64,000 bases of DNA from Candidatus Micrarchaeota archaeon (GTDB lineage: Archaea; Micrarchaeota; Micrarchaeia; Micrarchaeales; CABMGC01). The notes beneath the pieces are model-generated. The model had not been told where the DNA came from. It saw nothing but the letters and a program-made list of their open reading frames with translations, and made no database searches. The stretch lies in assembly GCA_028867025.1 (NCBI GenBank), contig JAGWHC010000001.1, positions 574,595 through 638,594 on the forward strand. Direction: 5' to 3'. Below are positions 428-15,074 of this stretch, one piece after another; the stretch's first letter is position 1; every line of letters begins with the position of its first letter. A program made the position numbers and the translations under genes.

Positions 428-2254
428 CTATTTATACAACGGAGTGCCGTTCTTGTAGCTGAGGATTTTGTATATGCTGAAGGTATAGTTCCAGCCGAAA
501 GTGTCATAGGGCGCGCTGACCACGGGGCTCATCGTGAAGTTATCCAGTATCTTTGTGCAGCCCGGAGTCGTGTTGTCCAGTTTGTAGCCGCCCGTGTTGA
601 CGATGCAGTCCAGGCTGTATTCGAAGTACAGGCAGCCGTGCGAGAGGTTCAGCAGCTCGCTCCTGTAAAAAGGCGTGAATATCCAGTCTGCGTACATGTT
701 GCTCACGTTCAGCACGTTCCACAGCGGCGGCTCATAGCTGAGCACGAAGCAGCCGTTTGGTATGAGCGTGTAGTTGCCGAGTATTACATGCTCCTGGAAG
801 CGCTCCGCTGAGAACGGATATATGTCCTGCGGCTGTTTCGCGACGAAGGTCGAGAACTCGAACACCAGGTCGGAGACCATGATTATTATAAGCGCAACCG
901 CCACAGCAGCCGCAAATAGTTTCCTTGATTTCGCGGCCCGTTTTCTCCCCATCTTCCTTTTCCTTCTGGCCTTCGCCACTTTCCAGCGCGCAGCTGAGAC
1001 AAGGCCCGCTATGCCGCCCGCAGCCAGCATGGACACAGCGGGGAACGACACCATGAAATACCTTATGTCGTCCCCGGCTCCGTAGAGCGCCTCCCCGCCG
1101 TAGTAAGATGTGTAGAAGATGAAAACCAGAAAGAACCAGAAGAGGAGCAAGACCGCTTCCGTCCTGTGTTTGCCGCGAAACATGAAGATCGCGCCAAGCG
1201 CTGCGAAAAGCGTGTAGGTCAGCGGGAACTCCAGGTTGTAGCTCTGCCAGCCAGAGGGCGTGATTATGCTCCCGTATCCGCCGAGCCAGAAGACAACGTT
1301 CTCAGCCACGTTCATCCAAAAGTTGTATAGCGAAATCCTTGCTACCCACGGCGCCGCCCCGAAGGTATTCAGGCTCCAGCTGTTGTATATGAAGATCAGT
1401 TGCGGGATGATGAGGATGGCCAGGACAGCCGCGAGCAGCGCATGCATCTTCAGCTCCTTCTTCCCCTTGCCCGAGATGCTCTTCCAGTCGACAGCGACGA
1501 GCAGGGCGAGAGCCACAGGCAGTACAAGTATCGCATCAACCTTCATGGTCAGCGTGTATGCCAGCGCAAGGCACGCCGCCACTCCAGGCAACACCCGTCT
1601 CTCCTTCAGATACGTGAGTAAGAGCGCGATCGCGAGCAGGAACACTGTCAGCTCCGGGGTGTCGATTATCAGCGACCTGGAAAACGTGAGGAAGAGCGGG
1701 GTGAAGCCGAAGAGCGCGGTTGCAAGAAGCGCGACGTCTCCGTCCTTGAGCAGCATGAAGGCGATGTAGAACATAAGCAGTATCGAGATGGAGGACAGCA
1801 GCAGGACGAGATTGTAGCCCGGGGCGAAGCCCACGCCGAACGCGAGGAAGGCGGCGCTCAGCATGGTCGCCCATCCGGTCGGCTGCTGCAGCAGGCCCGC
1901 GGTGTTGCTGACGCAGTGCGGTCCAATGGAAAAGCTGCATATGCCTGCGTAGTGATCATAGACGATTGTCTTCGCAATGCTCATGTGTATGTACTCATCG
2001 TTGAACAGCTGCTGCGTCGGCTGCACGAATGCGAGCTCCAAAACGAGGAAGGCAACGACGATCAACGCCAGCATGGCCAGACGCTTCTTTCCTGCGTATG
2101 AGGCGTTCTTCGCCACGTACCTGAAGGCGAACACAGTACCAACGATCATCGCCGCGAGCAGCGCAATGTCGTAGTAGAAGTAAAAATACTCTCCGCTGGT
2201 CCACTCAAAGTAGCTGAGTATGCTGCCTATCGCTTGAAGCATTAAGTAGCTCAC
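428..2254 (-). CDS. Polytopic membrane protein, probable GT-C fold glycosyltransferase (more divergent PMT/ArnT-like)
   Basis: 608 aa with many TM segments. Has an acidic first-loop motif (FNDEYIH) and a C-terminal soluble domain with N-x-S/T sequons. Stop/start overlap with the upstream surface-protein gene. Confidence 0.5.
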   Translation of the reverse strand: MSYLMLQAIGSILSYFEWTSGEYFYFYYDIALLAAMIVGTVFAFRYVAKNASYAGKKRLAMLALIVVAFLVLELAFVQPTQQLFNDEYIHMSIAKTIVYDHYAGICSFSIGPHCVSNTAGLLQQPTGWATMLSAAFLAFGVGFAPGYNLVLLLSSISILLMFYIAFMLLKDGDVALLATALFGFTPLFLTFSRSLIIDTPELTVFLLAIALLLTYLKERRVLPGVAACLALAYTLTMKVDAILVLPVALALLVAVDWKSISGKGKKELKMHALLAAVLAILIIPQLIFIYNSWSLNTFGAAPWVARISLYNFWMNVAENVVFWLGGYGSIITPSGWQSYNLEFPLTYTLFAALGAIFMFRGKHRTEAVLLLFWFFLVFIFYTSYYGGEALYGAGDDIRYFMVSFPAVSMLAAGGIAGLVSAARWKVAKARRKRKMGRKRAAKSRKLFAAAVAVALIIIMVSDLVFEFSTFVAKQPQDIYPFSAERFQEHVILGNYTLIPNGCFVLSYEPPLWNVLNVSNMYADWIFTPFYRSELLNLSHGCLYFEYSLDCIVNTGGYKLDNTTPGCTKILDNFTMSPVVSAPYDTFGWNYTFSIYKILSYKNGTPLYK

Positions 2255-4170
2255 TTACTTCGCCCTCTACCGCGCAGGCGTGCACCGCGCGCCTCGTGCC
2301 CGCGCCCGAACCTCAGGAATATGTAGGCGTACACGGCAACAAGCGCAAGGCTCAGCGCCGCCAGCTCGTAGAGAGGGTTTATGCTGCCGCTCAACGCGCT
2401 GGAGACAAGCGAGGCGCAGGTGTCGCGCGAGCTGTATATGAATGCGAACTGCCTTATCGCGGTGATGTTGGCCTGACCGCACACCGAAACGTTGTAAACC
2501 TCTATGCCCTCTGAGAACGGTGTGCCTGATGAAGAGAAAACCGAGAAATCGCTGCTGTACCCATTCCCTATGTTGAGATTGTAGAAGCCGACTCCAGACG
2601 CATCGCTTATGTTCACCCCGAAATCCCTCACGCCCGAAGGCTGCAGTGTGAGATTTCTGAAGGTCACTCCCTGCGAGTTCTCTACACTTATCCCGTTTCC
2701 CTCAACCTTGCAATCGCTTATGCCTATGTTGCTCGAATTCATCACATCGATGCCCACCACGGTGTCGTTTATGGTCCCGCCGTTGCAGTTTATGTTTATG
2801 TTGCTGCCTCTCACCACGACCCCAACGCTGCACGGCCTTTGGACCAGCTGGGGAGTTGCGGGCGCGGCTATGGGCAGCAGCGTGCCGCCAGCCATGTCAT
2901 ATGTCCCGCTCCTGTACACCATGATGGCTGACATAGGTATGGAAAGGTTGTACGCCAGCGCGCAGTAACCGAGCCCGAAGCTGAACGACGGAGTCGTTGA
3001 GTCCTGTACGAACGAGCCGAGACCAGGGATGTAGCCCTGCGCGGTCATTATGGACGAGTTTATTCCAAGGGCTACCGAAGCGGTGTAATTGATGAAATAG
3101 AAGCCGGTGCCGTTCGCGGTGTAGTTCGGAGCGGTGCCCGGGTGCGCGAACGCCTTGTAAAGTATTGAATGGCTGCCCACGCCTCCCGATACTGGGTTTG
3201 TGCTGAATTCGGAGGGGTCGTACCTGTACAGGTAGTCGGTAAAGTTCCAGTTGCCGTCCTGCGGCGGCACAGCGACTACATATCTTATCTGTATGGCGCT
3301 GGTGAAGTTGTCCGGCAGTATCTGGAAGTTGAACGGCGGGTATATCGGCTGTATGTACATCGGCGTGAGGTTCACGTTCCTGGTTATGTTCAGCGTGTAC
3401 ATGACCAACTGATCGTAGGCAAGGAACGAGTAATCGATCTGGTACGGGTTGTATCGCACAACGCCGTTCTTGGAGAGCGTGTAATCGGAGACCGGGAAAA
3501 CCCTGTAGCCCTTTATCTGTCCGTAGCTTACGGCAGAGTAGTTGGTCTCTATGTCGCTCTGGGTGATGTTGTATGCGCCCATCGGCACGCTTTCGGCTAT
3601 GAATGAGAAATTGTTAGTGAAGCGGCTGTCGAAGAACTCGCTCATCTGCAGCTCCGTGTTGTTGTACCTGAAAGTGTGATTGAAAAGCGGGAATATGTAG
3701 GAGAAGCCAGCCGCCCTGGGCCCGAAGGCCGACGTGTTGTAGCCGAAAGGCATGAAGACGTTGACACGGAGATAATGCATGACAGTTACGTTGGAGGTGT
3801 TGTCTGCGAACGCTGGCGAGAACGCCGGATTGTCGTCCCCCATTATGTAGAGGCTGGAGTGCGGCGCAAGAGCTATGCTCGGATTGTTTACTGTGCAGTT
3901 GCGCAAGTACACTGACCTGTCGTTGGAGTTAACGGTGATTGATGACCCGCTGCCAATAGCTGCGCCTTTGCAGTTTACGCCGCTGTTGGACACGCTGGGC
4001 GAGAAAGCCACACTGACACTGCTGCAGGAATTGCCGGTCAGGTTGTAGGTCTGATTGCTTGCGCTCAACGTCACGGTGCAGGTCTGCGATGCAGATGCGG
4101 TACCCACTCTAAACATAATTGTCAGGAAAAAGAGCGACAGCACCAGAAGATGCATCTTTTGTAAATACAT
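2251..4170 (-). CDS. Secreted, heavily sequon-decorated beta-helix surface protein with C-terminal TM anchor (S-layer/surface glycoprotein candidate)
   Basis: ORF runs to 4245, but MYLQKMHLLVLSLFFLTIMFRVGTASA (Met at 4170 or 4155) looks like the signal peptide. Parallel beta-helix type repeats are present (NININCNGGTINDTVVGIDVMNSSNIGISDCKVEGNGISVENSQGVTFRNLTL). About two dozen N-x-S/T sites by hand count. C-terminal TM plus Arg-rich tail (LALVAVYAYIFLRFGRGHEARGARLRGRGRSK). Confidence 0.6.
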   Translation of the reverse strand: MYLQKMHLLVLSLFFLTIMFRVGTASASQTCTVTLSASNQTYNLTGNSCSSVSVAFSPSVSNSGVNCKGAAIGSGSSITVNSNDRSVYLRNCTVNNPSIALAPHSSLYIMGDDNPAFSPAFADNTSNVTVMHYLRVNVFMPFGYNTSAFGPRAAGFSYIFPLFNHTFRYNNTELQMSEFFDSRFTNNFSFIAESVPMGAYNITQSDIETNYSAVSYGQIKGYRVFPVSDYTLSKNGVVRYNPYQIDYSFLAYDQLVMYTLNITRNVNLTPMYIQPIYPPFNFQILPDNFTSAIQIRYVVAVPPQDGNWNFTDYLYRYDPSEFSTNPVSGGVGSHSILYKAFAHPGTAPNYTANGTGFYFINYTASVALGINSSIMTAQGYIPGLGSFVQDSTTPSFSFGLGYCALAYNLSIPMSAIMVYRSGTYDMAGGTLLPIAAPATPQLVQRPCSVGVVVRGSNININCNGGTINDTVVGIDVMNSSNIGISDCKVEGNGISVENSQGVTFRNLTLQPSGVRDFGVNISDASGVGFYNLNIGNGYSSDFSVFSSSGTPFSEGIEVYNVSVCGQANITAIRQFAFIYSSRDTCASLVSSALSGSINPLYELAALSLALVAVYAYIFLRFGRGHEARGARLRGRGRSK

Positions 4171-4248
4171 ACCGGAATTTAATCTGTTCTCATCTTTAAA
4201 TCTCTTTGCGCTCAAACTTGTTTTGTTTAAGGAAAGCGCGCGCAAGCG

Positions 4249-5862
4249 ATGCGAATGGCAGCCGCCAGAAAACCACCGGTCAAAAGAGTCAATGGCGTCC
4301 CTCCCAACAAGCGGACCGGAGGGCCGAGCGGCAGGAATAGGGTTTCAGGCAGGCCGGCCTTCGGGCCAGATGCCAAGAGAACCGTGTGCTACGCAGCGCT
4401 GCTTGCAGTGCTCCTCTTCGCTGCGTGGTACTCTCTAAGCCACATCAACGCCCCCTCAAACCTTGACGACGACACAGCCTACATGCAGTACGGCCTGGCT
4501 TTGGCACACGGCACATTCATGGAGAACGCAAATCCGACGCTTATCCTGAGGTCGCTGATGATTGCCCCGATAGGCGTGATCTACGCCCTGTTCGGATTCT
4601 CGCAGTTCACAAGCGCGCTTTGGAGCATACTGTGCTTTCTGGGCTCAATACTTCTAGCCTTCTTCATAGGCAAGCTGCTTTACGGCGAGTACGTGGGCGT
4701 CGTGTCTGCGCTGCTTCTGAGCTTCATGCCCACAGTCTCCGTGCTTGCGACCACTGTAGACGAGATGGTGCCTTTCGTTTTCGTGTCGTCGCTCTCCATG
4801 CTGTGCCTGATCCTTGGGATGAAAACCGGCAAGGCAAAATTCTATTTCTGCTCCGGGCTCGCTGCATTCGCCTCGTTCCTGGTCTCTCCTCTTGGCGCGA
4901 TAACAGCACTGCTTGTGCTTGTGTACTTGGCATTTAACCTGCTGAAGAAGAAAGAGCCTTCAAGAAGCGCGATGGCATTCACCGTTCTCGGGCTCGCATG
5001 TGGCGTACTGCTGGCCGCGGGCTTCAACGTCTACAGCCACGCAAGCCCGCTTATAGAGTTCACAAGCACGTACAGCTTCTACTCAAGCGAAAACGTCGCG
5101 GCGCTGGTCATACTTGACCCCATCTACTACCTTTCGAACATGTTCCCGCTGAACCTGCAGGCAAGCGCTTCTCCAGGGCCGCAGGTTCTCTACTACTATC
5201 TGCTGATACCTGCCGCCTTTTACCTGGTGATCAGGGAGAGGAAAAAGTCAGGAGTGTTGCTGTACTGGTTCGCATTCGCGCTCTCCTACTTGGCAATCGG
5301 GCCGATGCACCTGAGTTTCAACCCGTTCATGTATTACACAATACCAGAGCTGTGGAGATATCTGGACTCGGTGGCAATGCCGCTTGTGCTGATAGTCGCC
5401 GCTGGCATCGTCGGAATCGCCGGCGATGCGTACAGCCTGCTGGGCAGGCCTCTCTTCGCGGCTGTCGCTCTTGTGTCCATAGCGCTGGTGGGCTATGTCC
5501 TATCCCAATCATTCGCGTCGACAATCTGGCTCTACAACGCAAGCATGGCAGGCCTATCCGGGGACAGGCAGGTGGCTGCGTACCTGAGCACGCTTCCGTT
5601 TAGCGCAAACATCTATCTTCCGAGTTCGTCCCCATATGTGTTCACTTTCATACAGCTCTCTAACATGAGCAGAACTGATAACATAACGCTAATCGTTTCT
5701 CCGCCCAACTGCACGAGCGTGCCAAAGCGGGCATACGTGTACCTGCCATACGAGTGGTACAATTCATCCGCAACCGGGCAGCCAGCGCAACGTTACTGCG
5801 GTTGGGACCCAGCCATGTATCTTGAAAACTACGGGACTGTCTATTACACAGGCAGCACCTGA
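4249..5862 (+). CDS. GT-C fold membrane glycosyltransferase, PMT_2/ArnT-like
   Basis: 537 aa, polytopic. After TM1 the loop motif is LDDDTAYMQYG, then LLYGEYVGVVSALLLSFMP. Clear paralog of the genes at 1..387, 11756 and 13461. Confidence 0.65.
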   Translation: MRMAAARKPPVKRVNGVPPNKRTGGPSGRNRVSGRPAFGPDAKRTVCYAALLAVLLFAAWYSLSHINAPSNLDDDTAYMQYGLALAHGTFMENANPTLILRSLMIAPIGVIYALFGFSQFTSALWSILCFLGSILLAFFIGKLLYGEYVGVVSALLLSFMPTVSVLATTVDEMVPFVFVSSLSMLCLILGMKTGKAKFYFCSGLAAFASFLVSPLGAITALLVLVYLAFNLLKKKEPSRSAMAFTVLGLACGVLLAAGFNVYSHASPLIEFTSTYSFYSSENVAALVILDPIYYLSNMFPLNLQASASPGPQVLYYYLLIPAAFYLVIRERKKSGVLLYWFAFALSYLAIGPMHLSFNPFMYYTIPELWRYLDSVAMPLVLIVAAGIVGIAGDAYSLLGRPLFAAVALVSIALVGYVLSQSFASTIWLYNASMAGLSGDRQVAAYLSTLPFSANIYLPSSSPYVFTFIQLSNMSRTDNITLIVSPPNCTSVPKRAYVYLPYEWYNSSATGQPAQRYCGWDPAMYLENYGTVYYTGST

Positions 5863-6035: not shown

Positions 6036-9000
6036 ATGCCGAATAGGGCGCGCAGAAGGAGAGCCGCGGGTGCACGGAGGGGAAGCAAGAAAGCTCAGTC
6101 TGCGCTTGAATATCTACTTACATACAGCTGGGCCATATTGCTTGTAGCAATAATAGTGGCCGTGCTCTACCTCTTCGTATTCGCGCCTTCGAACGTTACT
6201 CCGAGCAGCTGCATATTCACCGGCGGCACTTACTGCCAGGACGTCGTGTTCAGCTCGAACACAGCTGGAACGAGCGTCGCGCTCTTCCTGACCAACACAC
6301 AGTCATATGCGATAGCAAATCCTTCTGTCACGCTCAACTACAGCGGCACTTCAACCGCGGCATCATGCTCGCCAAGCCTCGTTCTTGAGGGCGGTGCTAT
6401 AATATGCAACGTGAACGTACCACTCAAGGCCATAGCGCTAGGTTCTCTGGCATCAGGAAAGGTGGTGCTCAGCGCGGTACCGTGCCCAAGCGCGAACCTG
6501 GCGCAGTGCTCCTCGGGCCAGGTAGTCGCATACACCGGATCTTTCAACACTCACGTCTCGCCCCTTCTCTCGTCCACACCCTCATCAATAACGATCAGCG
6601 TCCTCAACACCACGCAGGCGGCTAACGGCAACAGGGATCCTGTAACTGCCACAGTTCTGCTTCTAGGAAACCCGATCGGCGGCGCTTCTGTAAGCTTTTC
6701 GCAGGGCGTAGTGAGCGGCTCGGGCACACCTTCCTCGTCCTTCGGGCCAAGCGCCACTACCACCGGCAGCAACGGCCAGGCGCTCGCATACATTTCAAGC
6801 ACGCAGACAGGCACAACGAACGTCATCGCGACATTCGCGGGGCAGACTGTCAACGCGATAGTCAATTTCGTCACGCCGGCGATCACCACAGTTAGCCTCG
6901 GACAGGACGTGATAAACACAGTCTGCTCGGGCAATTCCGGAACATATGTTCTCACTATTGACGGCCAGAGCTACACCTGCTCGCAGCTGCCCATACAGTT
7001 CTCCTACAACCCGAACACGCAGCACAGCTACGCCTGCATCTCCCCCATCTCTGGCTCTTCAGGAACAAGATACGTATTCTCTTCAGTGAGCGGCTGCTCC
7101 GCGAGCGGCGGACAGTCAGGCACATTTACAGTAGGAGCCGCTGGCACAAGTTGCTCGCTCAACTGCGAGTACCAGACGCAGTACTCGTTCTCCGATTCCG
7201 CAAGCCCCAGCATAGGGGGCAGCGTCTCTCCTGCAAGCCAGTTCTATCCGGCCGGCAACGGCGTCAGCATAGTCGCAACCCCCAACAGCGGTTATGGGTT
7301 CGTCGACTGGGCGGGCACCGGCCCAGGCAGCTATAGCAGCGGAACATCACAGACGGGCACTGTCACTATGAATGGGCCGATAACAGAGGTAGCGACATTC
7401 ATGCTTCTCACTACAATCACCAACGCGGCAACCAACGCCGCCACCAACGCGGTGACCAACGCTGTCACAAACGCTGTCACAAATGCAGCAACAACGATCA
7501 CCAACGCGGTGACCAACGCAGTCACTAATGCCGCTACATCAATCACCAACGCTGTGACCAATGCTGTAACCAACGCCGCAACCTCCATCACCAACGCAGC
7601 TACATCCATCACCAACGCAGGAACCTCCATCACCAACGCCGCTACATCGATTACCAACGCAGCAACTTCAATCACCAACGCTGTCACCAACGCAGGAACC
7701 TCCATCACCAACGCCGCTACATCGATTACCAACGCAGGAACCTCCATCACCAACGCCGTGACCAACGCAGCCACCAACGCCGCTACATCCATCACCAACG
7801 CCGTGACCAACGCCGCCACCAATGCCGCGACCACGATCACCAATGCTGTGACCAACGCAGCCACCAACGCAGCGACATCCATCACCAACGCCGTGACCAA
7901 CGCTGTAACCAACGCCGTCACAAACGCAGCAACAACGATAACCAATGCCGCGACCACGATCACCAATGCTGTGACCAACGCAGCCACCAACGCCGCTACA
8001 TCGATCACCAACGCTGTTACCAACGCCGCGACGAACGCATGCAACACATGCTCGACCAACAACTACGGCTGCGGAAGCAGCTGCTCCGAACGAGTATGCT
8101 ACTCCTACGCAGGAAACTGCGTTCCTGGCACCCCAGAGGCCACGATAAGCTGCAGCCAGACTAACCCGCCTCCTGCAGCATGGCAGTGCCTGGTACCGAC
8201 CACAATCACCAACGCGGCCACCAACGCCGCCACCAACGCAGCAACAACGATCACCAACGCCGTCACTAATGCCGTCACCAACGCCGCGACCTCAATCACT
8301 AATGCAGTCACCAACGCAGCCACAATAGCATGTGATGTGTGCTACGCCTCCAGCAACCCCGGCTGCCCAGCAGGCTGCCCGACTGCGCTATATTTCAAGG
8401 ATAGCGCATGCAGTCAATCTGGAACGCCATACGCTAGTTTCACCTGCGTCCTCCTTACAACGATCACCAACGCGGCCACCAACGCCGTCACCAACGCAGG
8501 CACCAACGCAGCCACCACAGTCACCAACGCCGTCACCAACGCAGGCACCAACGCAGCAACTACAGTTACCCACTTCACCAACGCGGGCACCAACGCCGCG
8601 ACTACAATTACCCACTTCACCAACGCAGGCACCAACGCCGCTTCCGGTGCGTCCACCAACGCTCCTAGCGTCTGCAGCTTCAGGGGTGGCACTCCGATCT
8701 ACATGGCAAACGGCCAGATCAAGCCCATAGAGGAGCTACAGCCAGGAGAGGTTTACATGTCGTACGATCCGGCTACAAGAAGCCTGTATCCTGATGTGGT
8801 TGAGAAGCTTGTTACCGCAACAGTGCACGGCGAATACGTGATAAATGACGTTGGCACAGACGCGGTGGAAGAATTCTACACCAAGAGCGGCTGGAAGAGC
8901 GCTGATCAGATCAAGGTCGGCGATTCTATCCTGAACGCTATGTCAATGACATGGACGCCTGTTTACAGCGTTTCCTTCGTCAACACCACATTCACTGTTT

Positions 9001-9074
9001 ACGACTTCTTGGGAACCTCGGGCAACAGCGAACTTGTTGCAGGAGGGTATGTGGCAGACGGAACCATATGCTGA
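6036..9074 (+). CDS. Class III (type IV pilin-like) signal peptide surface protein: Ig-like modules, T-N-A-x repeat tracts, Cys knots, C-terminal Hint domain
   Basis: N-terminus MPNRARRRRAAGARRGSKKAQSALEYLLTYSWAILLVAIIVAVLYLF (DUF361-like Q-x-x-x-E-Y). Big_1-like segment (NGNRDPVTATVLLLGNPIGGASVSF...TGTTNVIATFAG). InlB-B-repeat-like segment (GGSVSPASQFYPAGNGVSIVATPNSGYGFVDWAGTG...VTMNGPITEVATF). Repeats and the Hint domain are listed separately. Confidence 0.85.
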   Translation: MPNRARRRRAAGARRGSKKAQSALEYLLTYSWAILLVAIIVAVLYLFVFAPSNVTPSSCIFTGGTYCQDVVFSSNTAGTSVALFLTNTQSYAIANPSVTLNYSGTSTAASCSPSLVLEGGAIICNVNVPLKAIALGSLASGKVVLSAVPCPSANLAQCSSGQVVAYTGSFNTHVSPLLSSTPSSITISVLNTTQAANGNRDPVTATVLLLGNPIGGASVSFSQGVVSGSGTPSSSFGPSATTTGSNGQALAYISSTQTGTTNVIATFAGQTVNAIVNFVTPAITTVSLGQDVINTVCSGNSGTYVLTIDGQSYTCSQLPIQFSYNPNTQHSYACISPISGSSGTRYVFSSVSGCSASGGQSGTFTVGAAGTSCSLNCEYQTQYSFSDSASPSIGGSVSPASQFYPAGNGVSIVATPNSGYGFVDWAGTGPGSYSSGTSQTGTVTMNGPITEVATFMLLTTITNAATNAATNAVTNAVTNAVTNAATTITNAVTNAVTNAATSITNAVTNAVTNAATSITNAATSITNAGTSITNAATSITNAATSITNAVTNAGTSITNAATSITNAGTSITNAVTNAATNAATSITNAVTNAATNAATTITNAVTNAATNAATSITNAVTNAVTNAVTNAATTITNAATTITNAVTNAATNAATSITNAVTNAATNACNTCSTNNYGCGSSCSERVCYSYAGNCVPGTPEATISCSQTNPPPAAWQCLVPTTITNAATNAATNAATTITNAVTNAVTNAATSITNAVTNAATIACDVCYASSNPGCPAGCPTALYFKDSACSQSGTPYASFTCVLLTTITNAATNAVTNAGTNAATTVTNAVTNAGTNAATTVTHFTNAGTNAATTITHFTNAGTNAASGASTNAPSVCSFRGGTPIYMANGQIKPIEELQPGEVYMSYDPATRSLYPDVVEKLVTATVHGEYVINDVGTDAVEEFYTKSGWKSADQIKVGDSILNAMSMTWTPVYSVSFVNTTFTVYDFLGTSGNSELVAGGYVADGTIC
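7410..8663 (+). repeat. In-frame coding tandem repeats: 12-nt ACC-AAC-GCN-NNN (T-N-A-[AVG]) units interspersed with 9-nt T-[ST]-I units
   Basis: Three tracts: 7410-8039 (40 TNA units + 17 T[ST]I units = 210 aa exactly), 8199-8330 (8 units) and 8457-8663 (12 units). Codons are synonymously scrambled. A 53-nt exact duplicate occurs at 7818-7870 and 7941-7993, giving a 123-nt higher-order period. Confidence 0.95.
8673..9071 (+). other. C-terminal Hint (Hedgehog/intein-like) domain, 133 aa, with no C-extein
   Basis: Starts at Cys880: CSFRGGTPIYMANGQIKPIEELQPGEVY (block A-like). Then KLVTATVHGEYVI (Thr/His block B-like), WKSADQIKVGDSIL and VYDFLGTSGNSELVAGGYVADGTIC-stop. There is no terminal His-Asn and no downstream residue. 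Confidence 0.7.
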
Positions 9075-9101: not shown

Positions 9102-9770
9102 ATGCATACTAGAAAGAAGCATAAAGCATCTACGCTGCCGACACTGTCCGCGCTGATTGCTTTCGGCCTAATAGCGCTCTATTTCACATATTTTTCCAGT
9201 AATGTTTCAGCCGCATCCTATCTTCCCACACTTAACGAGCTCAACAGCGTTTTCGGAAGCGGTTCTTACGAAACGTACGTTGTGCCGCACTGCATGAATT
9301 CAACCTTATTGTACAACACCAGCAGGGTAAATGACGTATGCTCCGTCATCTTTATACAGAGCACTAACAACAGTCGGGTGCCATATGAGATATCAGGAGT
9401 CTCCTACTCCTTCGCCACTCCCTCTGCAGCTGACGCCTACATAGCCAACGTCATACCCCACTTCAATTCGTCCCCCTGGCCTGGCGGTTCAAATACATCT
9501 AGCGAAGCAATACCTAACTTCAACTCGACTCCATGGTCTCAGGGTCCAAAGACATTTGGCAACCTGACCCCCAGCAGCGCGACTCTCTACTACACTTCGG
9601 TGAACTACGGCCTCGGCACGTACTACAATACAGTAATCACAATGTACGTCCTTTCAGGATCAAGAGTTCTTTCAGTCTCAGGGATCATGAGCTATGCGCA
9701 GAACATGACCAGAGCGCGCGCCGCTGTAGCAGAGCTTCTCCACATCCAGTACCTTAAAGCAACGCAGTAG
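9102..9770 (+). CDS. Secreted/anchored sequon-rich protein of unknown function
   Basis: 222 aa. N-terminal basic region plus hydrophobic helix (TLPTLSALIAFGLIALYFTYF). Several N-x-S/T sites. C-terminal ...LHIQYLKATQ resembles the end of the next gene. Confidence 0.5.
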   Translation: MHTRKKHKASTLPTLSALIAFGLIALYFTYFSSNVSAASYLPTLNELNSVFGSGSYETYVVPHCMNSTLLYNTSRVNDVCSVIFIQSTNNSRVPYEISGVSYSFATPSAADAYIANVIPHFNSSPWPGGSNTSSEAIPNFNSTPWSQGPKTFGNLTPSSATLYYTSVNYGLGTYYNTVITMYVLSGSRVLSVSGIMSYAQNMTRARAAVAELLHIQYLKATQ

Positions 9771-9883: not shown

Positions 9884-10618
9884 ATGGTCTCCAGTGTCTC
9901 TAATCCGGATGTTCGAGCTACTCCGACAGCCGGCAAGAAAGGCGGCGGAATACGCTATGTTATCAGTGGCCTGATTGTACTCCTAGTCATCGGCGTTATA
10001 AGCTTCTTTGCGATATCTTCCTATACTCCACCCCAACCTACGACAACAGCCTCAACTACCATCAAGGCTACCACAACGGCTCCGCCCCCACTTCCGTTCA
10101 CATTCAACAGTATACTGCTGGCGTCCAACGCGTTATATGGGTTTCCGCAGCAGCCGCAGTTCACTGACTATTACTTCAACTTCACCAATGCCGGCTGGGC
10201 CCATTCCCAGTACGCGGTGAATTTCACCTACCCGCTGTTTACCAACAACTTCACGCCTCCTGCAAACTATACTGTAAGCGTGCCCGCGCGGTACTCCAAC
10301 CTCACCTCTCCCTTCGCTTCAATAATTAGCGTGTGGGCTTATGCCACAGCAAGCTCTGCGGCGCAGAATTTCCCAGCTGTTGGTTCAACAATGTGTCGCA
10401 ACCTGAACGCTACCGGCTCGATGCGCACGGTCACTTCTGCAATAGGCTCGGTAACCACCTATTGCAGCGGTACTTTGTACGGCAGTAGCACCGAGGGCGT
10501 GCTCTTCAACCAAGGAAACGTTTCTGCTGAGGTCATCTTCTTCGGCGTGCTGCAGAAGCTCAACCCCTCATACCTGAATACCACAGCAAGGCACCTCTAT
10601 CTGAAGCTAACGCAGTAA
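9884..10618 (+). CDS. Membrane-anchored protein with Thr/Pro-rich stalk, unknown function (distant paralog of 9102)
   Basis: 244 aa. TM (YVISGLIVLLVIGVISFFAI) followed by PPQPTTTASTTIKATTTAPPP. Sequon-rich. Ends ...RHLYLKLTQ. Confidence 0.5.
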   Translation: MVSSVSNPDVRATPTAGKKGGGIRYVISGLIVLLVIGVISFFAISSYTPPQPTTTASTTIKATTTAPPPLPFTFNSILLASNALYGFPQQPQFTDYYFNFTNAGWAHSQYAVNFTYPLFTNNFTPPANYTVSVPARYSNLTSPFASIISVWAYATASSAAQNFPAVGSTMCRNLNATGSMRTVTSAIGSVTTYCSGTLYGSSTEGVLFNQGNVSAEVIFFGVLQKLNPSYLNTTARHLYLKLTQ

Positions 10619-11706: not shown

Positions 11707-11755
11707 ATATATGATTTCCAGCTATTTAACACTATTCCCATGTGACGGCGTAAAA

Positions 11756-13330
11756 ATGCCCCAAAACCGCACGAGCAAAGCAAATTCGGCAAAAGTGAAA
11801 TGCAGCTCTGCCCTCTACGCCGTAGCCCTCGTCCTTATCATCCTGCTCGGTGTCTTTCTAGCTTACCTTTTCTACTACGGGCCAAGCACCGCCAATGTGT
11901 CAGACAACTTCCTTTACGCCGACTACGCCCACCAGATATACGTGGGTCATGCCGGGTCGCTTCCCAGTAATGACGTGCTGGCGCAGCAGTACCTGCTTCT
12001 GGCCGGAATTGCCGCATTCTACGCTGCTTTCGGAGTCGCAAGCCCGTTCACAGCTTCCCTTTTCGGAGTGCTGTGCTTTGCGCTTACAATAGCCATCATA
12101 TACAAGATTGGCGCGCTACTCTACGGCAGAGGGGCCGGACTCGTCTCAGCGCTCGTGTACTCATTCAATCCCGTAGCGGTAATAAATGCCTCTTATGTAG
12201 GCGATAACGGTCCAATGGCGCTCTTTGCGTCCGCGTGCGTATTGTTCCTGATTCTCGGAATGCAGGAAAAACGTGTGGCGCGCTCAGGAACGTACTTCCT
12301 GCTTTCTGGATTTTCCGCAATGATAGGCGTTCTTGTTACAGTCCAGTCTGCAGAGATACTGGTGTTCGTAGCGCCATTCGCCCTCTTCTACGCGATTAGG
12401 GAAAAGAGCACCGCTTCGCTTCTTAACATAGGTCTGTTTGCTCTTGGAATTGCCATCGCGGTGGCGTGCACCGCGCTTGTCGAGTTTTCTATCGGCAACC
12501 CACCGCTTCTCGTGTTCAGCCTTAATTACAACGCCTATTCCGCCGGAGCAGGACACACGCCACAAATTGGGAACTATACGCGTTGGCTCTTTCCCGCCAA
12601 CCCAGCATCCCAGCTCAACCCCGCACAGGCTGCCTATAGCAGCGGCATGTCGAGCGGGCTTTACGGCTACGCCGCGCTGCTTGGCGCCGTATACCTATTA
12701 TTCCGCAGGAACTTCCGCTTTTTTGTCCCCGCCTTCTGGTCCGTCTCCACTCTCCTTTACATGGGTTACGGCTCGCTGAGCCTGCTTGACTATGTGCCGA
12801 TAAGCTATTCGCGCGTACGCTTTATGCTGATATTCATACCTGCGCTTGCTCTCATAATAGGGTTCTCGCTCCTGGACATGGCAGAAATCCTAAGGAAAAA
12901 CAGGCTCAAGATTTTAGGCCTTCTACTTCCTGGGCTTATTGTCATTGCGCTTTTCATAAACTCAGCCGGTATAATTCAGTTCGTCGGCCTGTCGCAGTAC
13001 AAACACACGTATCAGTTGTCACAGACAGGCAGCTTCCTGCTAGGTCTGCCTGCAGACGTGCCAGTTTACGGCAACATCGAGCCGCTTGACGTATACGCCC
13101 ACTACAAGCCCAATTTTGTAGAATCGGAATACGACTTCTTCCCGCCTTTTTACTTTGGGTCCAACTGCAGCATGCTTGCTGTCCCGAATGCAAGCGTTGC
13201 AAAAATATGCGGCCTCAGGGAGGCATTCGCCTCTTCCCAGCCTCCGGCCTATCTGGATGCGTACCGCCTGTTCGACAACGACAGCTTCAGGATTTATGAA
13301 AACATCACTGTCTACTACAAGGCCGCGTAA
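11756..13330 (+). CDS. GT-C fold membrane glycosyltransferase, PMT_2/ArnT-like
   Basis: ORF opens at 11711. Met at 11756 (MPQNRTSK) sits about 45 nt after an AACATATATATG TATA-like element. Loop motif VSDNFLYADYA, then LLYGRGAGLVSALVYSFNP. Confidence 0.65.
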   Translation: MPQNRTSKANSAKVKCSSALYAVALVLIILLGVFLAYLFYYGPSTANVSDNFLYADYAHQIYVGHAGSLPSNDVLAQQYLLLAGIAAFYAAFGVASPFTASLFGVLCFALTIAIIYKIGALLYGRGAGLVSALVYSFNPVAVINASYVGDNGPMALFASACVLFLILGMQEKRVARSGTYFLLSGFSAMIGVLVTVQSAEILVFVAPFALFYAIREKSTASLLNIGLFALGIAIAVACTALVEFSIGNPPLLVFSLNYNAYSAGAGHTPQIGNYTRWLFPANPASQLNPAQAAYSSGMSSGLYGYAALLGAVYLLFRRNFRFFVPAFWSVSTLLYMGYGSLSLLDYVPISYSRVRFMLIFIPALALIIGFSLLDMAEILRKNRLKILGLLLPGLIVIALFINSAGIIQFVGLSQYKHTYQLSQTGSFLLGLPADVPVYGNIEPLDVYAHYKPNFVESEYDFFPPFYFGSNCSMLAVPNASVAKICGLREAFASSQPPAYLDAYRLFDNDSFRIYENITVYYKAA

Positions 13331-13460: not shown

Positions 13461-15074
13461 ATGAGCCCGGATATCGGGGTTCTGAAGCAGATGCTTGACC
13501 AAAAAACAGAGTATTTGGGCATCTTCCTTATACTGGTGCTTGGAGCTTACCTGAGCCTTGGCTTCTTTTACGGTCCGAGCTGGATAAACGGCTCGGACAA
13601 TTTCGTCTATACTTCAGAAGCGCATGCACTGGCCTACAATCCGCACACGGCCTATTTCGGGGACGAAGACAATGTTAAATTTCTTATATATGCCGGAATC
13701 ATCCCTTTTTACCTTCTGCTTGGCTATGGCCCTCTCTCATCTGCGCTGTTCGGAGTTACGTGTTTCCTTGGAAATGTGCTAACAGTTTACATTCTTGGCA
13801 AAAAACTTTACAGTCCGACTGCAGGAATGGTCGCCGCTTTTCTGTATGCGACCTTGCCATTAGTCATCGCCGAGAGCTCTAACGTCGGTGACGATGTGCC
13901 GGCTACGTTCTTCGTCTCCCTCGCAATACTTTTCGCTGTTCTGGCCATGGAAAACGGGAAACGGCGTAATCTCTATTATGCGCTTGCAGGTTTCCTGTCA
14001 GCCATAAGCTACCTTGCCGTACCCGAGGGCGCCATAGGCGCGCTTTTTGTGCTCTTACTTTTCGGAGTCATTGCAGTCATGACAAGAAAGAAAGAGGCGA
14101 TTAGCGGTCTCTTCTTCGGCACCCTCGGTTCCGTATGCGCATTCACTGTAGTAATACTGATCGGCATTGTGCTGCAGAACCCGCTGGCCGTGATAGTAGC
14201 AGAGAACGCCAACCTCAACGCCTACTCGACGGTTCCTGGCTTCCTTAGCTATCTTGGCTGGATGCTGCCAGTGCAGTTTGTCCAGGCATCTCTCCTGAGT
14301 GGCTACCTTCCGATACCAACGCCCCAAAGCTTCTCATTATTGCTTAACTATGTCAACCGCTATAGCCTGGAATCACTAATCTTTGGATACCTTGGCTTCG
14401 TCTTCTTCTTAAGCGCAATCTACCTTATTGCCAGCAACGAACGCAAATCGCTTGTGCCACTGTTCTGGTTTTCCTTTGTCTTTGCATATCTTGGGCTGGG
14501 CAGCCAAAGCTTAACAAGATACCTTCCTGTTCTGACGGTATCCAGATTCCTTATACTTCTCTGCCCCGCGATTGCGCTTGTCGTAGGCATTGCATTATCC
14601 AAAGCGCTGGAGTTTTCACGAAAAAAGAGACCGGTTGTAAGGTTTGCGATCACCTTCGCGATAATTTATTTCTTAGTTTTGACCCTTTTGAATTCCTACT
14701 TTTCAGTAATGTACATACAGTATTCCCAGTATAATGCCATGGTTCCGTTAATTGAGACGGGCAATTACATCAATTCGCTCAGTCCCAATGCAACAATCAC
14801 AGGCCCCGTAGACATTCCTTGGGACGTGTACACAAACTACACGCATGCGATGGTGCAGGTAGGCTATGCGCGGTTTGAGACGAACTGCAGTGTTGTGCAG
14901 CTATTCCAAATGCAGCCTGGTTATTATTTTGTTGGCATGAACAACAGTACACTTTTGTCCTGCGGCCTTGCTCCTGTATTCACACCTTATCCTGTCAGTT
15001 GGCTAAGAAACTACACTCTTTTCACTTATTGGGGAATGAATTTCTCCAATTTCGCTATTTATAGATACCAGTGA
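13461..15074 (+). CDS. GT-C fold membrane glycosyltransferase, PMT_2/ArnT-like
   Basis: 537 aa. GSDNFVYTSEA loop, then KLYSPTAGMVAAFLYATLP. Polytopic, with a sequon-bearing C-terminal domain. TTTTATATAG lies at about 13403. Confidence 0.65.
   Translation: MSPDIGVLKQMLDQKTEYLGIFLILVLGAYLSLGFFYGPSWINGSDNFVYTSEAHALAYNPHTAYFGDEDNVKFLIYAGIIPFYLLLGYGPLSSALFGVTCFLGNVLTVYILGKKLYSPTAGMVAAFLYATLPLVIAESSNVGDDVPATFFVSLAILFAVLAMENGKRRNLYYALAGFLSAISYLAVPEGAIGALFVLLLFGVIAVMTRKKEAISGLFFGTLGSVCAFTVVILIGIVLQNPLAVIVAENANLNAYSTVPGFLSYLGWMLPVQFVQASLLSGYLPIPTPQSFSLLLNYVNRYSLESLIFGYLGFVFFLSAIYLIASNERKSLVPLFWFSFVFAYLGLGSQSLTRYLPVLTVSRFLILLCPAIALVVGIALSKALEFSRKKRPVVRFAITFAIIYFLVLTLLNSYFSVMYIQYSQYNAMVPLIETGNYINSLSPNATITGPVDIPWDVYTNYTHAMVQVGYARFETNCSVVQLFQMQPGYYFVGMNNSTLLSCGLAPVFTPYPVSWLRNYTLFTYWGMNFSNFAIYRYQ

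What the first reader, a model, noticed from the sequence alone, without database searches (positions are those of the whole stretch)
7410..8663. Sixty T-N-A-x units: a 4-residue-period Thr/Asn/Ala repeat that systematically avoids N-glycosylation sequons
Seen in sequence (hand parse):
- Tract 1 is exactly 40 T-N-A-[A/V/G] units plus 17 T-[S/T]-I units (210 aa). Tract 2 has 8 units and tract 3 has 12.
- The fourth residue is only A, V or G. T[ST]I always follows a TNAA unit.
- Each tract opens the same way after a hydrophobic pair: LLTTITNAATNA, VPTTITNAATNA, LLTTITNAATNA.
- The tracts are built almost entirely of N, T, S and A, yet I find no N-x-S/T sequon in them. Asn is always followed by A-x-T, one residue out of register. 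Neighbouring surface proteins are packed with sequons.
- At DNA level the 12-nt units use scrambled synonymous codons (GCG/GCC/GCT/GCA, ACC/ACA/ACT). A 53-nt exact duplication at 7818-7870 and 7941-7993 shows recent 123-nt (41-aa) block expansion.

Inference: selection acts on the peptide periodicity. The tract may be a regular Thr-ladder solenoid or fibre and/or a mucin-like O-glycosylation substrate for the adjacent PMT-like GT-C enzymes. It is also likely to vary in length between strains.
Basis: partly seen in the sequence, partly recalled or inferred. Interest (0 to 1): 0.7.

Follow-up and report, generated by a model that had tools for sequence, protein, structure and literature searches.

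The report
Uncharged Thr-Asn-Ala repeat stalk in archaeal adhesin
The Thr-Asn-Ala repeats are real and form the spacer segments of a large surface adhesin of a tiny symbiotic archaeon; they most likely build a long, charge-free helical rod, which is unusual but not a new kind of biology.

Summary
ORF 6036-9074 (+, 1012 aa) carries three tracts of TNA[A/V/G] four-residue units mixed with T[S/T][I/V] three-residue units. The tracts contain no N-x-S/T sequon, use scrambled synonymous codons, and show recent internal block duplications.

The protein is a Candidatus Micrarchaeota (DPANN) surface protein. It has a type-IV-pilin-like N-terminus, Ig-like domains and an InlB B-repeat domain. Three [repeat tract + capping module] cassettes follow: two end in small Cys-rich modules and the last in a Hint-like domain.

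In the syntenic ortholog and in paralogs, poly-Ser/Thr linkers sit where the tracts sit here. The tracts are therefore inter-domain spacers.

The tracts are not a beta-solenoid.
- AlphaFold2 folds tract 1 alone as one continuous helix of about 219 residues (mean pLDDT 91.5).
- 16 of 17 super-units are 7, 11, 15 or 19 residues long, the periodicities open to alpha-helical coiled coils (p about 0.001 against shuffled unit order).
- The nearest sequence analogues are phage tail-fibre heptads and tape-measure hendecads.

Evidence against a helix: relatives carry pure 4.0-period or proline-containing variants.

"Sequon avoidance" cannot be separated from the repeat itself. The link to the PMT-like GT-C genes rests on adjacency only and is absent from three paralog loci. 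Strain-level length variation could not be tested.

Verdict: a new variant of a known kind, of moderate interest.

The parts
6036..9074 (+). Whole gene: 1012-aa modular type-IV-pilin-like surface adhesin of a Candidatus Micrarchaeota archaeon
   Evidence: ORF list. Thirty homologs were found, and the named ones are Micrarchaeota/Micrarchaeia. P0001 is the syntenic ortholog.
6036..6197 (+). Class III (type IV pilin-like) signal peptide and hydrophobic N-terminal helix: KKA|QSALEYLLTYSWAILLVAIIVAVLYLFVFAP
   Evidence: The motif is read from the sequence. AF2 predicts a helix at aa 23-54. Pfam Class_IIIsignal matches only at E 0.84. JGI names homolog P0006 'UPF0333 family'. A Peptidase_A24 gene lies next to family genes in L123.
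6198..7403 (+). Confidently folded beta-rich ectodomain: pilin head, a Big_1 Ig-like domain (aa 185-278) and an InlB B-repeat domain (aa 390-456)
   Evidence: Pfam Big_1 2e-7 and Flg_new_2 3e-10. AF2 pLDDT is 80-94. Foldseek matches intimin and invasin Ig domains.
7410..8042 (+). Tract 1: 39 TNA[AVG] units, one TNAC and 17 T[ST]I units (211 aa). Super-units are 27, 15, 15, 7, 7, 7, 7, 11, 7, 7, 15, 15, 15, 19, 7, 15 and 15 residues.
   Evidence: AF2 on the isolated tract gives one helix over residues 3-221, mean pLDDT 91.5.
7609..7758 (+). Recent 75-nt block duplication inside tract 1 (about 95% identity)
   Evidence: TRF finds period 75 with 94% matches. The shift-75 identity is 94.7%.
7818..7993 (+). 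53-nt exact duplicate at a 123-nt offset (7818-7870 = 7941-7993)
8040..8192 (+). Cys-rich module 1 (CNTC...GCGSSC..., 8 Cys), which starts directly at the end of tract 1
   Evidence: Read from the sequence. It is homologous to the modules of P0001, P0004 and P0008.
8199..8321 (+). Tract 2: 8 TNA[AV] units and 3 T[ST]I units (41 aa; 3.73 residues per unit)
   Evidence: AF2 predicts a helix at aa 722-760 with low pLDDT.
8331..8447 (+). Cys-rich module 2 (CDVC...GCPAGC...)
   Evidence: It aligns to the P0001 module CNTCYATTNPGCPGGCP.
8457..8669 (+). Tract 3: 11 TNA[AVG] units, TTI/TTV/THF three-residue units and a tail SGASTNAPS (3.65 residues per unit)
   Evidence: AF2 predicts coil with pLDDT below 30. 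The P0031 fragment has TNAGTNAGTNAAS before its Hint-like domain.
8673..9071 (+). C-terminal Hint/BIL-like domain starting at Cys880 (CSFRGGTPIYMANG). The TxxH histidine and the C-terminal Asn are both absent.
   Evidence: The A2 profile against PDB hits 6y75/6tmm at 6e-9, the BIL domain 2lwy at 4e-7, and inteins. Weak Pfam Hint and PT-HINT matches. Micrarchaeia-specific relatives exist.

Best explanation
The three TNAx/T[ST]I tracts are the spacer (stalk) segments of a modular, type-IV-pilin-like surface adhesin of an acidophilic DPANN archaeon (Candidatus Micrarchaeota).

Shown: each tract lies between folded modules. The order is Ig/B-repeat domains, tract 1, cystine module, tract 2, cystine module, tract 3, Hint-like domain. 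The tracts occupy the positions where the ortholog and paralogs carry poly-Ser/Thr linkers. The peptide is under purifying selection, while the DNA evolves by block duplication.

Inferred: the repeat encodes an entirely uncharged amphipathic alpha-helix, with Thr and Asn on one face and Ala, Val and Ile on the other. TNAA-T[ST]I is a heptad, and each extra TNAx unit acts as a 4-residue 'stutter'. This yields 7-, 11-, 15- and 19-residue periods, averaging 3.65-3.77 residues per turn. Such a helix cannot stand alone. It probably self-associates into a slightly right-handed coiled-coil rod, about 33 nm long for tract 1, possibly stapled by the CxxC cystine modules that start right at the tract ends. 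The rod would hold the distal modules away from the cell surface, towards a host cell. The exposed Thr stripe may additionally be O-glycosylated, but nothing here shows that.
For: Architecture and position:
- ORF and homologs.
- The alignment to the syntenic ortholog P0001 shows S/T/Q-rich linkers in place of all three tracts.
- In relatives L033, L111 and P0031, TNAx runs sit immediately before Cys modules or the Hint-like domain.

Peptide-level selection:
- Codon positions 1 and 2 of T, N and A are invariant in 60 units, while third positions are scrambled.
- The same holds for the (TNAA)12 run of L033.

Helix:
- AF2 on isolated tract 1 gives one helix over residues 3-221, mean pLDDT 91.5; two of five models exceed 90.
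- In the full-length model, helices span 468-523, 546-674 and 722-760 at pLDDT 47-69.
- The hydrophobic-moment peak is at 95.5-99 degrees in all three tracts, with none at 170 degrees.

Coiled-coil grammar:
- 16 of 17 super-units are 7, 11, 15 or 19 residues, against 9.3 expected when unit order is shuffled (P = 0.0008).
- No two 3-residue units are adjacent (P = 0.001).
- 93% of local windows have period 3.5-3.8, against 69% expected.
- These are the periodicities described as accessible to coiled coils, whereas 4.0 is not (PMC4786415).
- Coiled coils can accommodate long hydrophilic stretches (PMC13580157 abstract).

Analogues:
- Among 1.84 billion proteins, the nearest matches to the tract are phage tail-fibre TSETNAA heptads, which share the 3+4 grammar, and tape-measure 11-residue repeats.
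- The best PDB sequence hit is a tape measure protein.

The mature protein has only 4.3% D+E+K+R. Micrarchaeota are described as acidophilic (bioRxiv 10.1101/2021.04.28.441871).
Against: - Relatives do not keep the helical arithmetic. L033 has (TNAA)12 and L111 about 21 consecutive TNAA units, giving a period of 4.0. P0008 has TNSP-TSI-THI with a proline every 10 residues. L033 also has TNAP/TNPA/TNGA units.
- The ortholog makes do with S/T/Q-rich, presumably disordered, linkers.
- Thr and Asn are poor helix formers, and seven units carry Gly.
- The first super-unit (27 residues, 3.86 per turn) lies outside the accessible range.
- AF2 without an alignment is biased towards helices for periodic Ala-rich sequences. 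Three of five models scored only 58-68. In the full-length model the middle of tract 1 and all of tract 3 were coil.
- The shuffle tests assume independent units, but the array grew by block duplication.
- Oligomerisation was not tested.
Confidence: 0.5

Rival explanations
1. The tracts are extended, mucin-like, O-glycosylated linkers. The Thr residues (one in every 3-4 positions) are modified, possibly by the flanking PMT_2 GT-C enzymes. The glycans stiffen and protect an otherwise unstructured spacer, and Asn and Ala merely provide an uncharged, sequon-free context.
For: - The tracts are positionally equivalent to poly-S/T linkers in the ortholog and paralogs.
- In L033 the TNAA run directly continues a linker of about 180 aa made of S and T.
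- The tracts are 29-31% Thr.
- Four PMT_2 genes lie in the window and one in the ortholog locus.
Against: - O-glycosylation of Thr does not explain why Asn and Ala are invariant at the peptide level.
- The tracts contain no proline.
- AF2 gives a confident helix rather than disorder.
- The 7/11/15/19 grammar is unexplained.
- PMT_2 adjacency is absent from three paralog loci that also carry S/T linkers.
- No glycan data exist.
Confidence: 0.3
2. The tracts are flexible low-complexity spacers with no defined fold and no modification. Replication slippage and unequal recombination generate the periodicity. Selection only keeps the composition polar, uncharged and protease- and acid-resistant. 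At most, local T-N Asx/ST turns form, as in the NANP repeats of the Plasmodium circumsporozoite protein (comparison from my own knowledge).
For: - DNA periods of 12, 21, 33, 45 and 75 nt, together with recent exact or near-exact block duplications.
- Family variants tolerate Pro, Gly, Tyr, Asp and Phe inside the unit while keeping only 'TN'.
- Simple TNAx runs occur in many unrelated metagenomic ORFs.
- Tract 3 is predicted as coil.
Against: - Strict invariance of three of the four unit positions despite saturated synonymous divergence.
- Non-random ordering of 3- and 4-residue units.
- High-confidence helix in the isolated AF2 run.
Confidence: 0.15
3. The tracts form a beta-solenoid or Thr-ladder fibre, like an antifreeze protein.
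For: The Thr spacing is regular, and the 15-residue super-unit resembles the coil length of some insect antifreeze beta-helices (from my own knowledge).
Against: - Super-unit length varies between 7, 11, 15, 19 and 27 residues.
- AF2 predicts no beta strand in either run.
- The hydrophobic moment at 160-180 degrees is negligible.
Confidence: 0.02
4. The tracts are an array of non-canonical N-glycosylation sites (Asn-Ala-X). Here the invariant Asn, not Thr, would be the modified residue.
For: Asn is as invariant as Thr. From my own knowledge and not checked here: Halobacterium salinarum was reported to glycosylate the Asn of an Asn-Ala-Ser site even after Ser was replaced by Val, Leu or Asn.
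Against: There is no evidence for such an enzyme in this window or in this lineage. Canonical sequons are abundant in neighbouring proteins, which suggests a standard AglB-type system.
Confidence: 0.03

Closest known systems
Modular type IV pilins (e.g. Streptococcus sanguinis PilB; PMC8179133) and archaeal class-III-signal-peptide adhesin-like proteins with Ig folds (bioRxiv 10.64898/2026.04.22.720090)
   Same: An N-terminal pilin-type signal and anchor helix is fused to extra functional domains. Ig-like domains are present, and an adhesion role is presumed.
   Different: This protein is archaeal (DPANN). It has three long repeat stalks, cystine modules and a terminal Hint-like domain. The Pfam class III signal model matches only below threshold, and no pilus machinery was examined in the window.
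Coiled-coil stalks with mixed heptad, hendecad and pentadecad periodicity (trimeric autotransporter adhesin stalks, tetrabrachion; PMC4786415, PMC13580157)
   Same: The 7/11/15/19-residue periods are built as a heptad plus 4-residue stutters. The mean is 3.65-3.77 residues per turn. The sequences are rich in Ala, Asn, Thr, Ile and Val, and the function is a spacer in a surface adhesin.
   Different: The tract has no charged residue at all. Oligomeric state and knobs-into-holes packing are untested. There is no sequence homology. Relatives with a pure 4.0 period fall outside the coiled-coil range.
Phage tail-fibre shafts with A-T-S-E-T-N-A heptad arrays, and tape-measure proteins with 11-residue repeats
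   Same: These are the best sequence-level matches to the tract. The TSE+TNAA unit has the same 3+4 grammar as TSI+TNAA. Both are long fibrous helical segments.
   Different: The phage heptad has Glu where this tract has Ile. The phage arrays have no runs of consecutive 4-residue units. The similarity is compositional or convergent, with E-values no better than 1e-24 and no shared flanking domains.
Poly-Ser/Thr (mucin-like) linkers of surface glycoproteins, including the O-glycosylated Thr-rich region of haloarchaeal S-layer glycoproteins
   Same: The tracts have the same position and presumed spacer role as the S/T linkers of the ortholog and paralogs. Thr content is high.
   Different: This is a strictly periodic 4/3-residue unit with invariant Asn and Ala. 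It is predicted helical, and O-glycosylation is undemonstrated.
Type I fish antifreeze proteins (Ala-rich helices with Thr and Asx at 11-residue spacing; from my own knowledge)
   Same: A Thr/Asn/Ala composition arranged periodically along an amphipathic helix.
   Different: The organism and context differ: an acidophilic archaeal adhesin. Ala content is much lower, and nothing indicates ice binding.

Membership tests
Alpha-helical coiled coil (heptad/hendecad/pentadecad) | Apolar residues recur with a period between about 3.5 and 3.8 residues | tested here: met
   There are 3.70, 3.73 and 3.65 residues per unit in tracts 1-3. The moment peak is at 95.5-99 degrees. Sixteen of 17 super-units are 7, 11, 15 or 19 residues long. 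The accessible range is taken from PMC4786415.
Alpha-helical coiled coil (heptad/hendecad/pentadecad) | Continuous alpha-helix | tested here: inconclusive
   The isolated tract folds as one helix at pLDDT 91.5, but three of five models score 58-68. In the full-length model pLDDT is 47-69, with a coil gap at 524-545, and tract 3 is coil. No alignment depth was available.
Alpha-helical coiled coil (heptad/hendecad/pentadecad) | Two or more helices packed knobs-into-holes | not testable with these tools
   Only single-chain prediction was available.
Mucin-like O-glycosylated linker | High Ser/Thr content in an inter-domain position | tested here: met
   About 35% S+T. The tracts replace the S/T linkers of P0001 and the paralogs.
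Mucin-like O-glycosylated linker | Predicted disorder or extended conformation, usually Pro-rich | tested here: not met
   There is no Pro in the tracts apart from one in the tail. AF2 predicts a helix.
Mucin-like O-glycosylated linker | O-glycans on Ser/Thr and a dedicated transferase | not testable with these tools
   PMT_2 genes are adjacent here and in L001. They are absent near family members in L122-L124.
Beta-solenoid / Thr-ladder repeat protein | Constant coil length and beta-strand periodicity | tested here: not met
   Super-units range from 7 to 27 residues. No strand is predicted, and there is no 160-180 degree moment.
Archaeal type IV pilin-like (class III signal peptide) protein | A [KR][GA]|[Q..] cleavage motif followed by a hydrophobic helix, with Glu at +5 | tested here: met
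   The motif KKA|QSALEYLLTYSWAILLVAIIV is read directly from the sequence. AF2 predicts a helix at aa 23-54. The motif definition is from my own knowledge of FlaFind-type rules.
Archaeal type IV pilin-like (class III signal peptide) protein | Match to the curated family model, and an associated prepilin peptidase | tested here: inconclusive
   Pfam Class_IIIsignal matches at E 0.84, below its cut-off. JGI names homolog P0006 UPF0333. A Peptidase_A24 gene lies beside family genes in L123. The window itself was not searched for one.
Hint / bacterial intein-like domain | Sequence similarity to Hint-fold domains | tested here: met
   The A2 profile against PDB hits 6y75/6tmm at 6e-9, the BIL domain 2lwy at 4e-7, and several inteins.
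Hint / bacterial intein-like domain | Catalytic residues: N-terminal Cys/Ser, block-B TxxH, and (for splicing) a C-terminal His-Asn | tested here: not met
   Cys880 is present. The block-B position reads TDAV here, TDAG in P0001 and TPTD in P0002, so no His is present. The protein ends ...ADGTIC with no His-Asn. Autoprocessing therefore cannot be assumed.

The most novel reading that the evidence does not exclude
The tracts are a natural, completely uncharged coiled coil: heptads (TNAA-TSI) interspersed with TNAx 'stutter' units. This would give an acid-proof, slightly right-handed rod. The rod would be stapled by CxxC cystine modules and tipped by a His-less Hint-like domain, and a DPANN episymbiont would use it to bridge the gap to its host. 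In addition, the solvent-exposed Thr stripe could be the substrate of the four flanking PMT-like GT-C enzymes. That would give a first genetic handle on the still-unknown archaeal O-glycosylation pathway.
Probability: 0.15. Interest if true: 0.75.

Novelty: new variant of a known kind. Interest (0 to 1): 0.42.

Why it matters
If the helical-rod reading is right, this is a rare natural example of a long coiled-coil-type stalk built without a single charged residue (Thr/Asn outside, Ala/Val/Ile inside). Its periodicity would be set by mixing 3- and 4-residue units. That bears on how fibrous proteins are stabilised at very low pH and on coiled-coil design.

For DPANN biology, it defines a family of pilin-anchored, cassette-built adhesins. 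Their variable stalks and distal modules (Kelch, NHL, Gly-rich, Cys-rich, Hint-like) are candidates for host attachment.

If instead the tracts are O-glycosylated, the locus with its four PMT-like GT-C genes would be a concrete place to look for the unknown archaeal O-glycosylation machinery.

If neither holds, it is an ordinary fast-evolving low-complexity linker.

Tried and rejected
1. Beta-solenoid or Thr-ladder fold. Rejected because of variable super-unit length, no predicted strands and no beta-type hydrophobic moment.

2. Sequon avoidance as evidence of selection. Residue shuffles look striking (0 observed against about 20 expected). At the level of the repeating unit, however, two thirds of arrangements are sequon-free anyway. 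A/V/G at position 4 is equally explained by a helical core position.

3. Conserved association with PMT_2 GT-C genes. It is present in the window and in the ortholog locus L001 but absent around family members in L122, L123 and L124.

4. Strain-level length polymorphism. No exact-protein record exists for this gene or for two neighbours. Peptide-pattern scans of genome and metagenome contigs found no close relative. This remains untestable here.

5. Pfam and NCBIfam on the whole protein found nothing. Domains appeared only when the segments were scanned separately.

6. A second homology search with the C-terminal 358 aa was swamped by low-complexity words and gave only P0031.

7. The antisense ORF 7331-8062 (ALVTALV...) and the +2-frame ORF 8332-8730 (PT-rich) are by-products of the repeat, not genes.

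8. A literature search for the repeat strings TNAATNAA, TNAVTNA, ATSETNA and TSITNA found nothing relevant.

9. Testing whether unit order minimises drift of the helical stripe gave a non-significant result (P about 0.10). The run-length statistics were the informative ones.
Full report
**What is at the coordinates.** The finding lies inside one long ORF, 6036-9074 on the + strand (1012 aa). An automated parse gives three tracts.
- Tract 1 (aa 459-669, nt 7410-8042) has 39 TNA[A/V/G] units, a closing TNAC and 17 T[S/T]I units, 211 aa in all.
- Tract 2 (aa 722-762) has 8 four-residue and 3 three-residue units.
- Tract 3 (aa 808-869, with a tail reaching aa 878) has 11 TNA[A/V/G] units, a later TNAP, and six three-residue units (TTI, TTV, THF).

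All three tracts open with LL/VP-TTITNAATNA. Two details are slightly off. T[ST]I follows TNAG three times as well as TNAA fifteen times, and never follows TNAV. The fourth residue is Cys or Pro at tract ends.

**DNA-level checks.** The 53-nt exact duplicate 7818-7870 / 7941-7993 is real. A 75-nt block is also duplicated at about 95% identity. Tandem Repeats Finder sees periods of 12, 21, 33, 45 and 75 nt.

**Sequons.** The tracts contain no N-x-S/T, whereas shuffling their residues gives about 14, 2.6 and 4.1. Neighbouring secreted proteins carry 3.3-4.1 sequons per 100 aa, against 0.4 for this ORF. The raw observation is therefore correct. The tract is essentially one unit repeated, however, and only 20 of 60 tandem arrangements of T, N, A and x would create a sequon. 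'Systematic avoidance' therefore has an effective sample size near one. Position 4 is never Ser or Thr, although Ala-to-Thr is a single transition. That is suggestive, but it is explained equally well if position 4 is an apolar structural position.

**Selection on the peptide.** Across 60 four-residue units, the first and second codon positions of Thr, Asn and Ala never vary. Third positions carry 0.6-1.9 bits of entropy, and 30 TNAA units are written in 14 different ways. The same holds for the (TNAA)12 run of a relative, which uses 8 DNA versions.

**What the protein is.**
- *Family.* Homologs are proteins of Candidatus Micrarchaeota/Micrarchaeia (DPANN archaea), and they share only the N-terminal ~45% of the query.
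- *N-terminus.* It reads KKA|QSALEYLLTYSWAILLVAIIV..., a type-IV-pilin-like (class III) signal and anchor with Glu at +5. AF2 predicts a helix at aa 23-54. JGI names one homolog 'UPF0333 family'. A prepilin-peptidase (Peptidase_A24) gene sits beside tandem family genes in L123. The Pfam class III model matches only at E 0.84.
- *Ectodomain.* The next ~400 residues fold confidently (pLDDT 80-94) into beta domains. These include a Big_1 Ig-like domain and a divergent InlB B-repeat domain, and they resemble intimin and invasin.
- *Cassettes.* Three cassettes follow: tract 1 plus a Cys module (CNTC...GCGSSC...), tract 2 plus a Cys module (CDVC...GCPAGC...), and tract 3 plus a C-terminal domain.
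- *C-terminal domain.* A four-sequence profile identifies it as Hint/BIL-like: PDB 6y75/6tmm at 6e-9, BIL domain 2lwy at 4e-7, plus inteins. It keeps the N-terminal Cys (C880) but lacks the block-B His and a C-terminal His-Asn, as do its Micrarchaeia relatives. Autoprocessing cannot be assumed.
- *Charge.* The mature protein has only 4.3% D+E+K+R. This fits an extracellular protein of an acidophile, and Micrarchaeota are described as acidophilic (bioRxiv 10.1101/2021.04.28.441871).

**Comparative evidence: the tracts are spacers.** P0001 is 67% identical over the N-terminal ~45% of the query and shares downstream synteny (small secreted proteins, a radical SAM gene on the minus strand, and a PMT_2 gene). 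It has the same module order, but S/T/Q-rich linkers stand where all three tracts stand here. Other family members have TSTSTT-type linkers followed by varied distal domains, including Kelch-like, NHL, Gly-rich, Cys-rich and Hint-like domains.

A metagenome scan for DNA encoding TNAxTNAxTNAxT returned mostly unrelated simple repeats, but it also found two family members.
- L033 has a ~180-aa S/T linker running into IATNFA(TNAA)12 and then a Cys module.
- L111 has about 29 TNAA units with TNSA and TSV units before a Cys module, and a second fragment reading ...STNAATNSATNAATNSATNAP-TCECSTC.

P0031 has TNAGTNAGTNAAS just before its Hint-like domain. TNAx runs therefore recur at junctions to Cys or Hint modules in this family. 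In the window's protein they have expanded to fill the whole linker.

**Conformation.**
- *AF2.* With a 16-sequence alignment of the whole protein, AF2 puts helices at 468-523, 546-674 and 722-760 at pLDDT 47-69, and leaves tract 3 as coil. Given tract 1 alone (aa 454-680), it returns a single unbroken helix over residues 3-221 with mean pLDDT 91.5. Two of five models exceed 90 and three score 58-68.
- *Hydrophobic moment.* The spectrum peaks at 95.5-99 degrees (period 3.64-3.77) in all three tracts and is flat near 170 degrees.
- *Unit arithmetic.* Each three-residue unit plus the four-residue units that follow it makes a super-unit of 27, 15, 15, 7, 7, 7, 7, 11, 7, 7, 15, 15, 15, 19, 7, 15 and 15 residues. 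According to PMC4786415, a heptad extended by 4-residue stutters gives 11/3, 15/4 and 19/5, all within the range accessible to coiled coils, while 4.0 and 3.0 are not. Here 16 of 17 super-units fall in {7, 11, 15, 19} against 9.3 expected for shuffled unit order (P = 0.0008). No two three-residue units are adjacent (P = 0.001). In addition, 93% of local four-unit windows have a period of 3.5-3.8, against 69% expected.
- *Register.* With Ile of T[ST]I as position a, Ala and Val fall on d, e and h, which are the core positions of hendecads. Thr and Asn fall on the outside. This is my inference from the sequence.
- *Analogues.* A HMMER scan of 1.84 billion representative proteins found nothing closer than E = 2e-24. 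The two classes of hits are phage tail-fibre proteins with A-T-S-E-T-N-A heptads (TSE+TNAA, the same 3+4 grammar) and tape-measure proteins with 11-residue repeats, as confirmed by PHROGs. The best PDB sequence hit is a tape measure protein. Recent work shows that coiled coils can accommodate long hydrophilic stretches that are confidently predicted as disordered (PMC13580157).

**Evidence against a helical rod.**
- Relatives do not keep the arithmetic. L033 and L111 have long pure 4.0-period runs. P0008 has TNSP-TSI-THI with a proline every ten residues. L033 has TNAP/TNPA/TNGA/TNYA units.
- What is conserved family-wide is mainly the 'T-N' pair plus small residues.
- The ortholog uses presumably disordered S/T linkers.
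- Thr and Asn are weak helix formers, and seven units contain Gly.
- AF2 without an alignment favours helices for periodic Ala-containing sequences, and its two runs disagree about the middle of tract 1.
- The shuffle tests treat units as independent, although the array grew by block duplication.

I therefore hold the spacer role with high confidence (about 0.85). I hold the specific helical, probably oligomeric, rod model at about 0.5.

**O-glycosylation and the GT-C genes.** Four PMT_2-family GT-C genes lie in the window: 428-2254 (-), 4249-5862 (+), 11711-13330 (+) and 13461-15074 (+). One lies in the ortholog locus. None lies within 10 kb of family members in three other loci, although those proteins also carry S/T linkers. 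[quoted passage not shown] Here it rests on adjacency alone. It is also not exclusive of the rod model, because the Thr stripe of a helix would be solvent-exposed.

**Length variation.** Recent internal duplications, the very different linker lengths in the ortholog (about 55 aa against 211 aa) and the varying TNAx run lengths among relatives all show that these segments change length over evolutionary time. Strain-level polymorphism could not be tested. The window's genome is not in the searchable collections.

**Verdict.** The solenoid is rejected, sequon avoidance is not demonstrable, and the GT-C link and strain polymorphism remain untested. The feature is best described as a lineage-specific, peptide-conserved repeat that replaces poly-S/T linkers in a Micrarchaeota pilin-like modular adhesin. 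It most likely forms an uncharged amphipathic helical stalk. That makes it a new variant of known kinds, namely repeat stalks of surface adhesins and non-heptad coiled coils. It is moderately interesting for coiled-coil structural biology and for DPANN host attachment.

Noticed in passing
window 8673-9071 (aa 880-1012); relatives P0182-P0196: The C-terminal Hint/BIL-like domain keeps the N-terminal Cys but lacks the block-B His and a C-terminal His-Asn. Micrarchaeia-specific relatives exist, often as tandem Hint-like pairs (many are truncated gene calls), and none has the His. Whether it autoprocesses is unknown.
   Followed up: partly
window 8040-8192 and 8331-8447: Two homologous small Cys-rich modules (CxxC...GCxxxC...) begin exactly where tracts 1 and 2 end (TNA-C-NTC, TIA-C-DVC). 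They have no Pfam match. They could be disulfide knots or inter-chain staples.
   Followed up: partly
window 428-2254(-), 4249-5862(+), 11711-13330(+), 13461-15074(+): Four paralogous PMT_2-family GT-C glycosyltransferase genes flank the adhesin within 15 kb. That is an unusual density, and their substrates are unknown.
   Followed up: partly
window 2251-4245(-), 9102-9770(+), 9884-10618(+): Three ORFs with no Pfam match carry very high N-x-S/T densities: 26, 9 and 8 sequons, or 3.3-4.1 per 100 aa. The two small ones have counterparts downstream of the ortholog in L001.
   Followed up: partly
window 45460-48723(+): A DEAD-box archaeal helicase gene is interrupted by an intein with a LAGLIDADG homing-endonuclease domain (Pfam DEAD, Intein_splicing, LAGLIDADG_3, Helicase_dom4_arc).
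   Followed up: no
window 7331-8062(-) and 8332-8730(+): Long spurious ORFs (ALVTALV... on the antisense strand and PT/Q-rich in the +2 frame) are generated purely by the repeat. Gene callers could mis-annotate them.
   Followed up: yes
window 6036-9074; family proteins P0001-P0014: The mature adhesin has only 4.3% charged residues (D+E+K+R), and the family ranges from 3 to 9%. This fits exposure to an acidic environment.
   Followed up: partly
L123 2490-14566; L122 1383-12432: Family members occur as tandem paralogs with different distal domains (Kelch-like, Gly-rich). In L123 they lie next to a Peptidase_A24 prepilin-peptidase gene, which supports pilin-type processing of the family.
   Followed up: partly
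P0008 (aa ~480-560): A relative carries a 10-residue variant, TNSP-TSI-THI, with a proline in every repeat. The period of 3.33 residues per unit is incompatible with an alpha-helix. The family therefore uses related T-N-based units in what must be different conformations.
   Followed up: no
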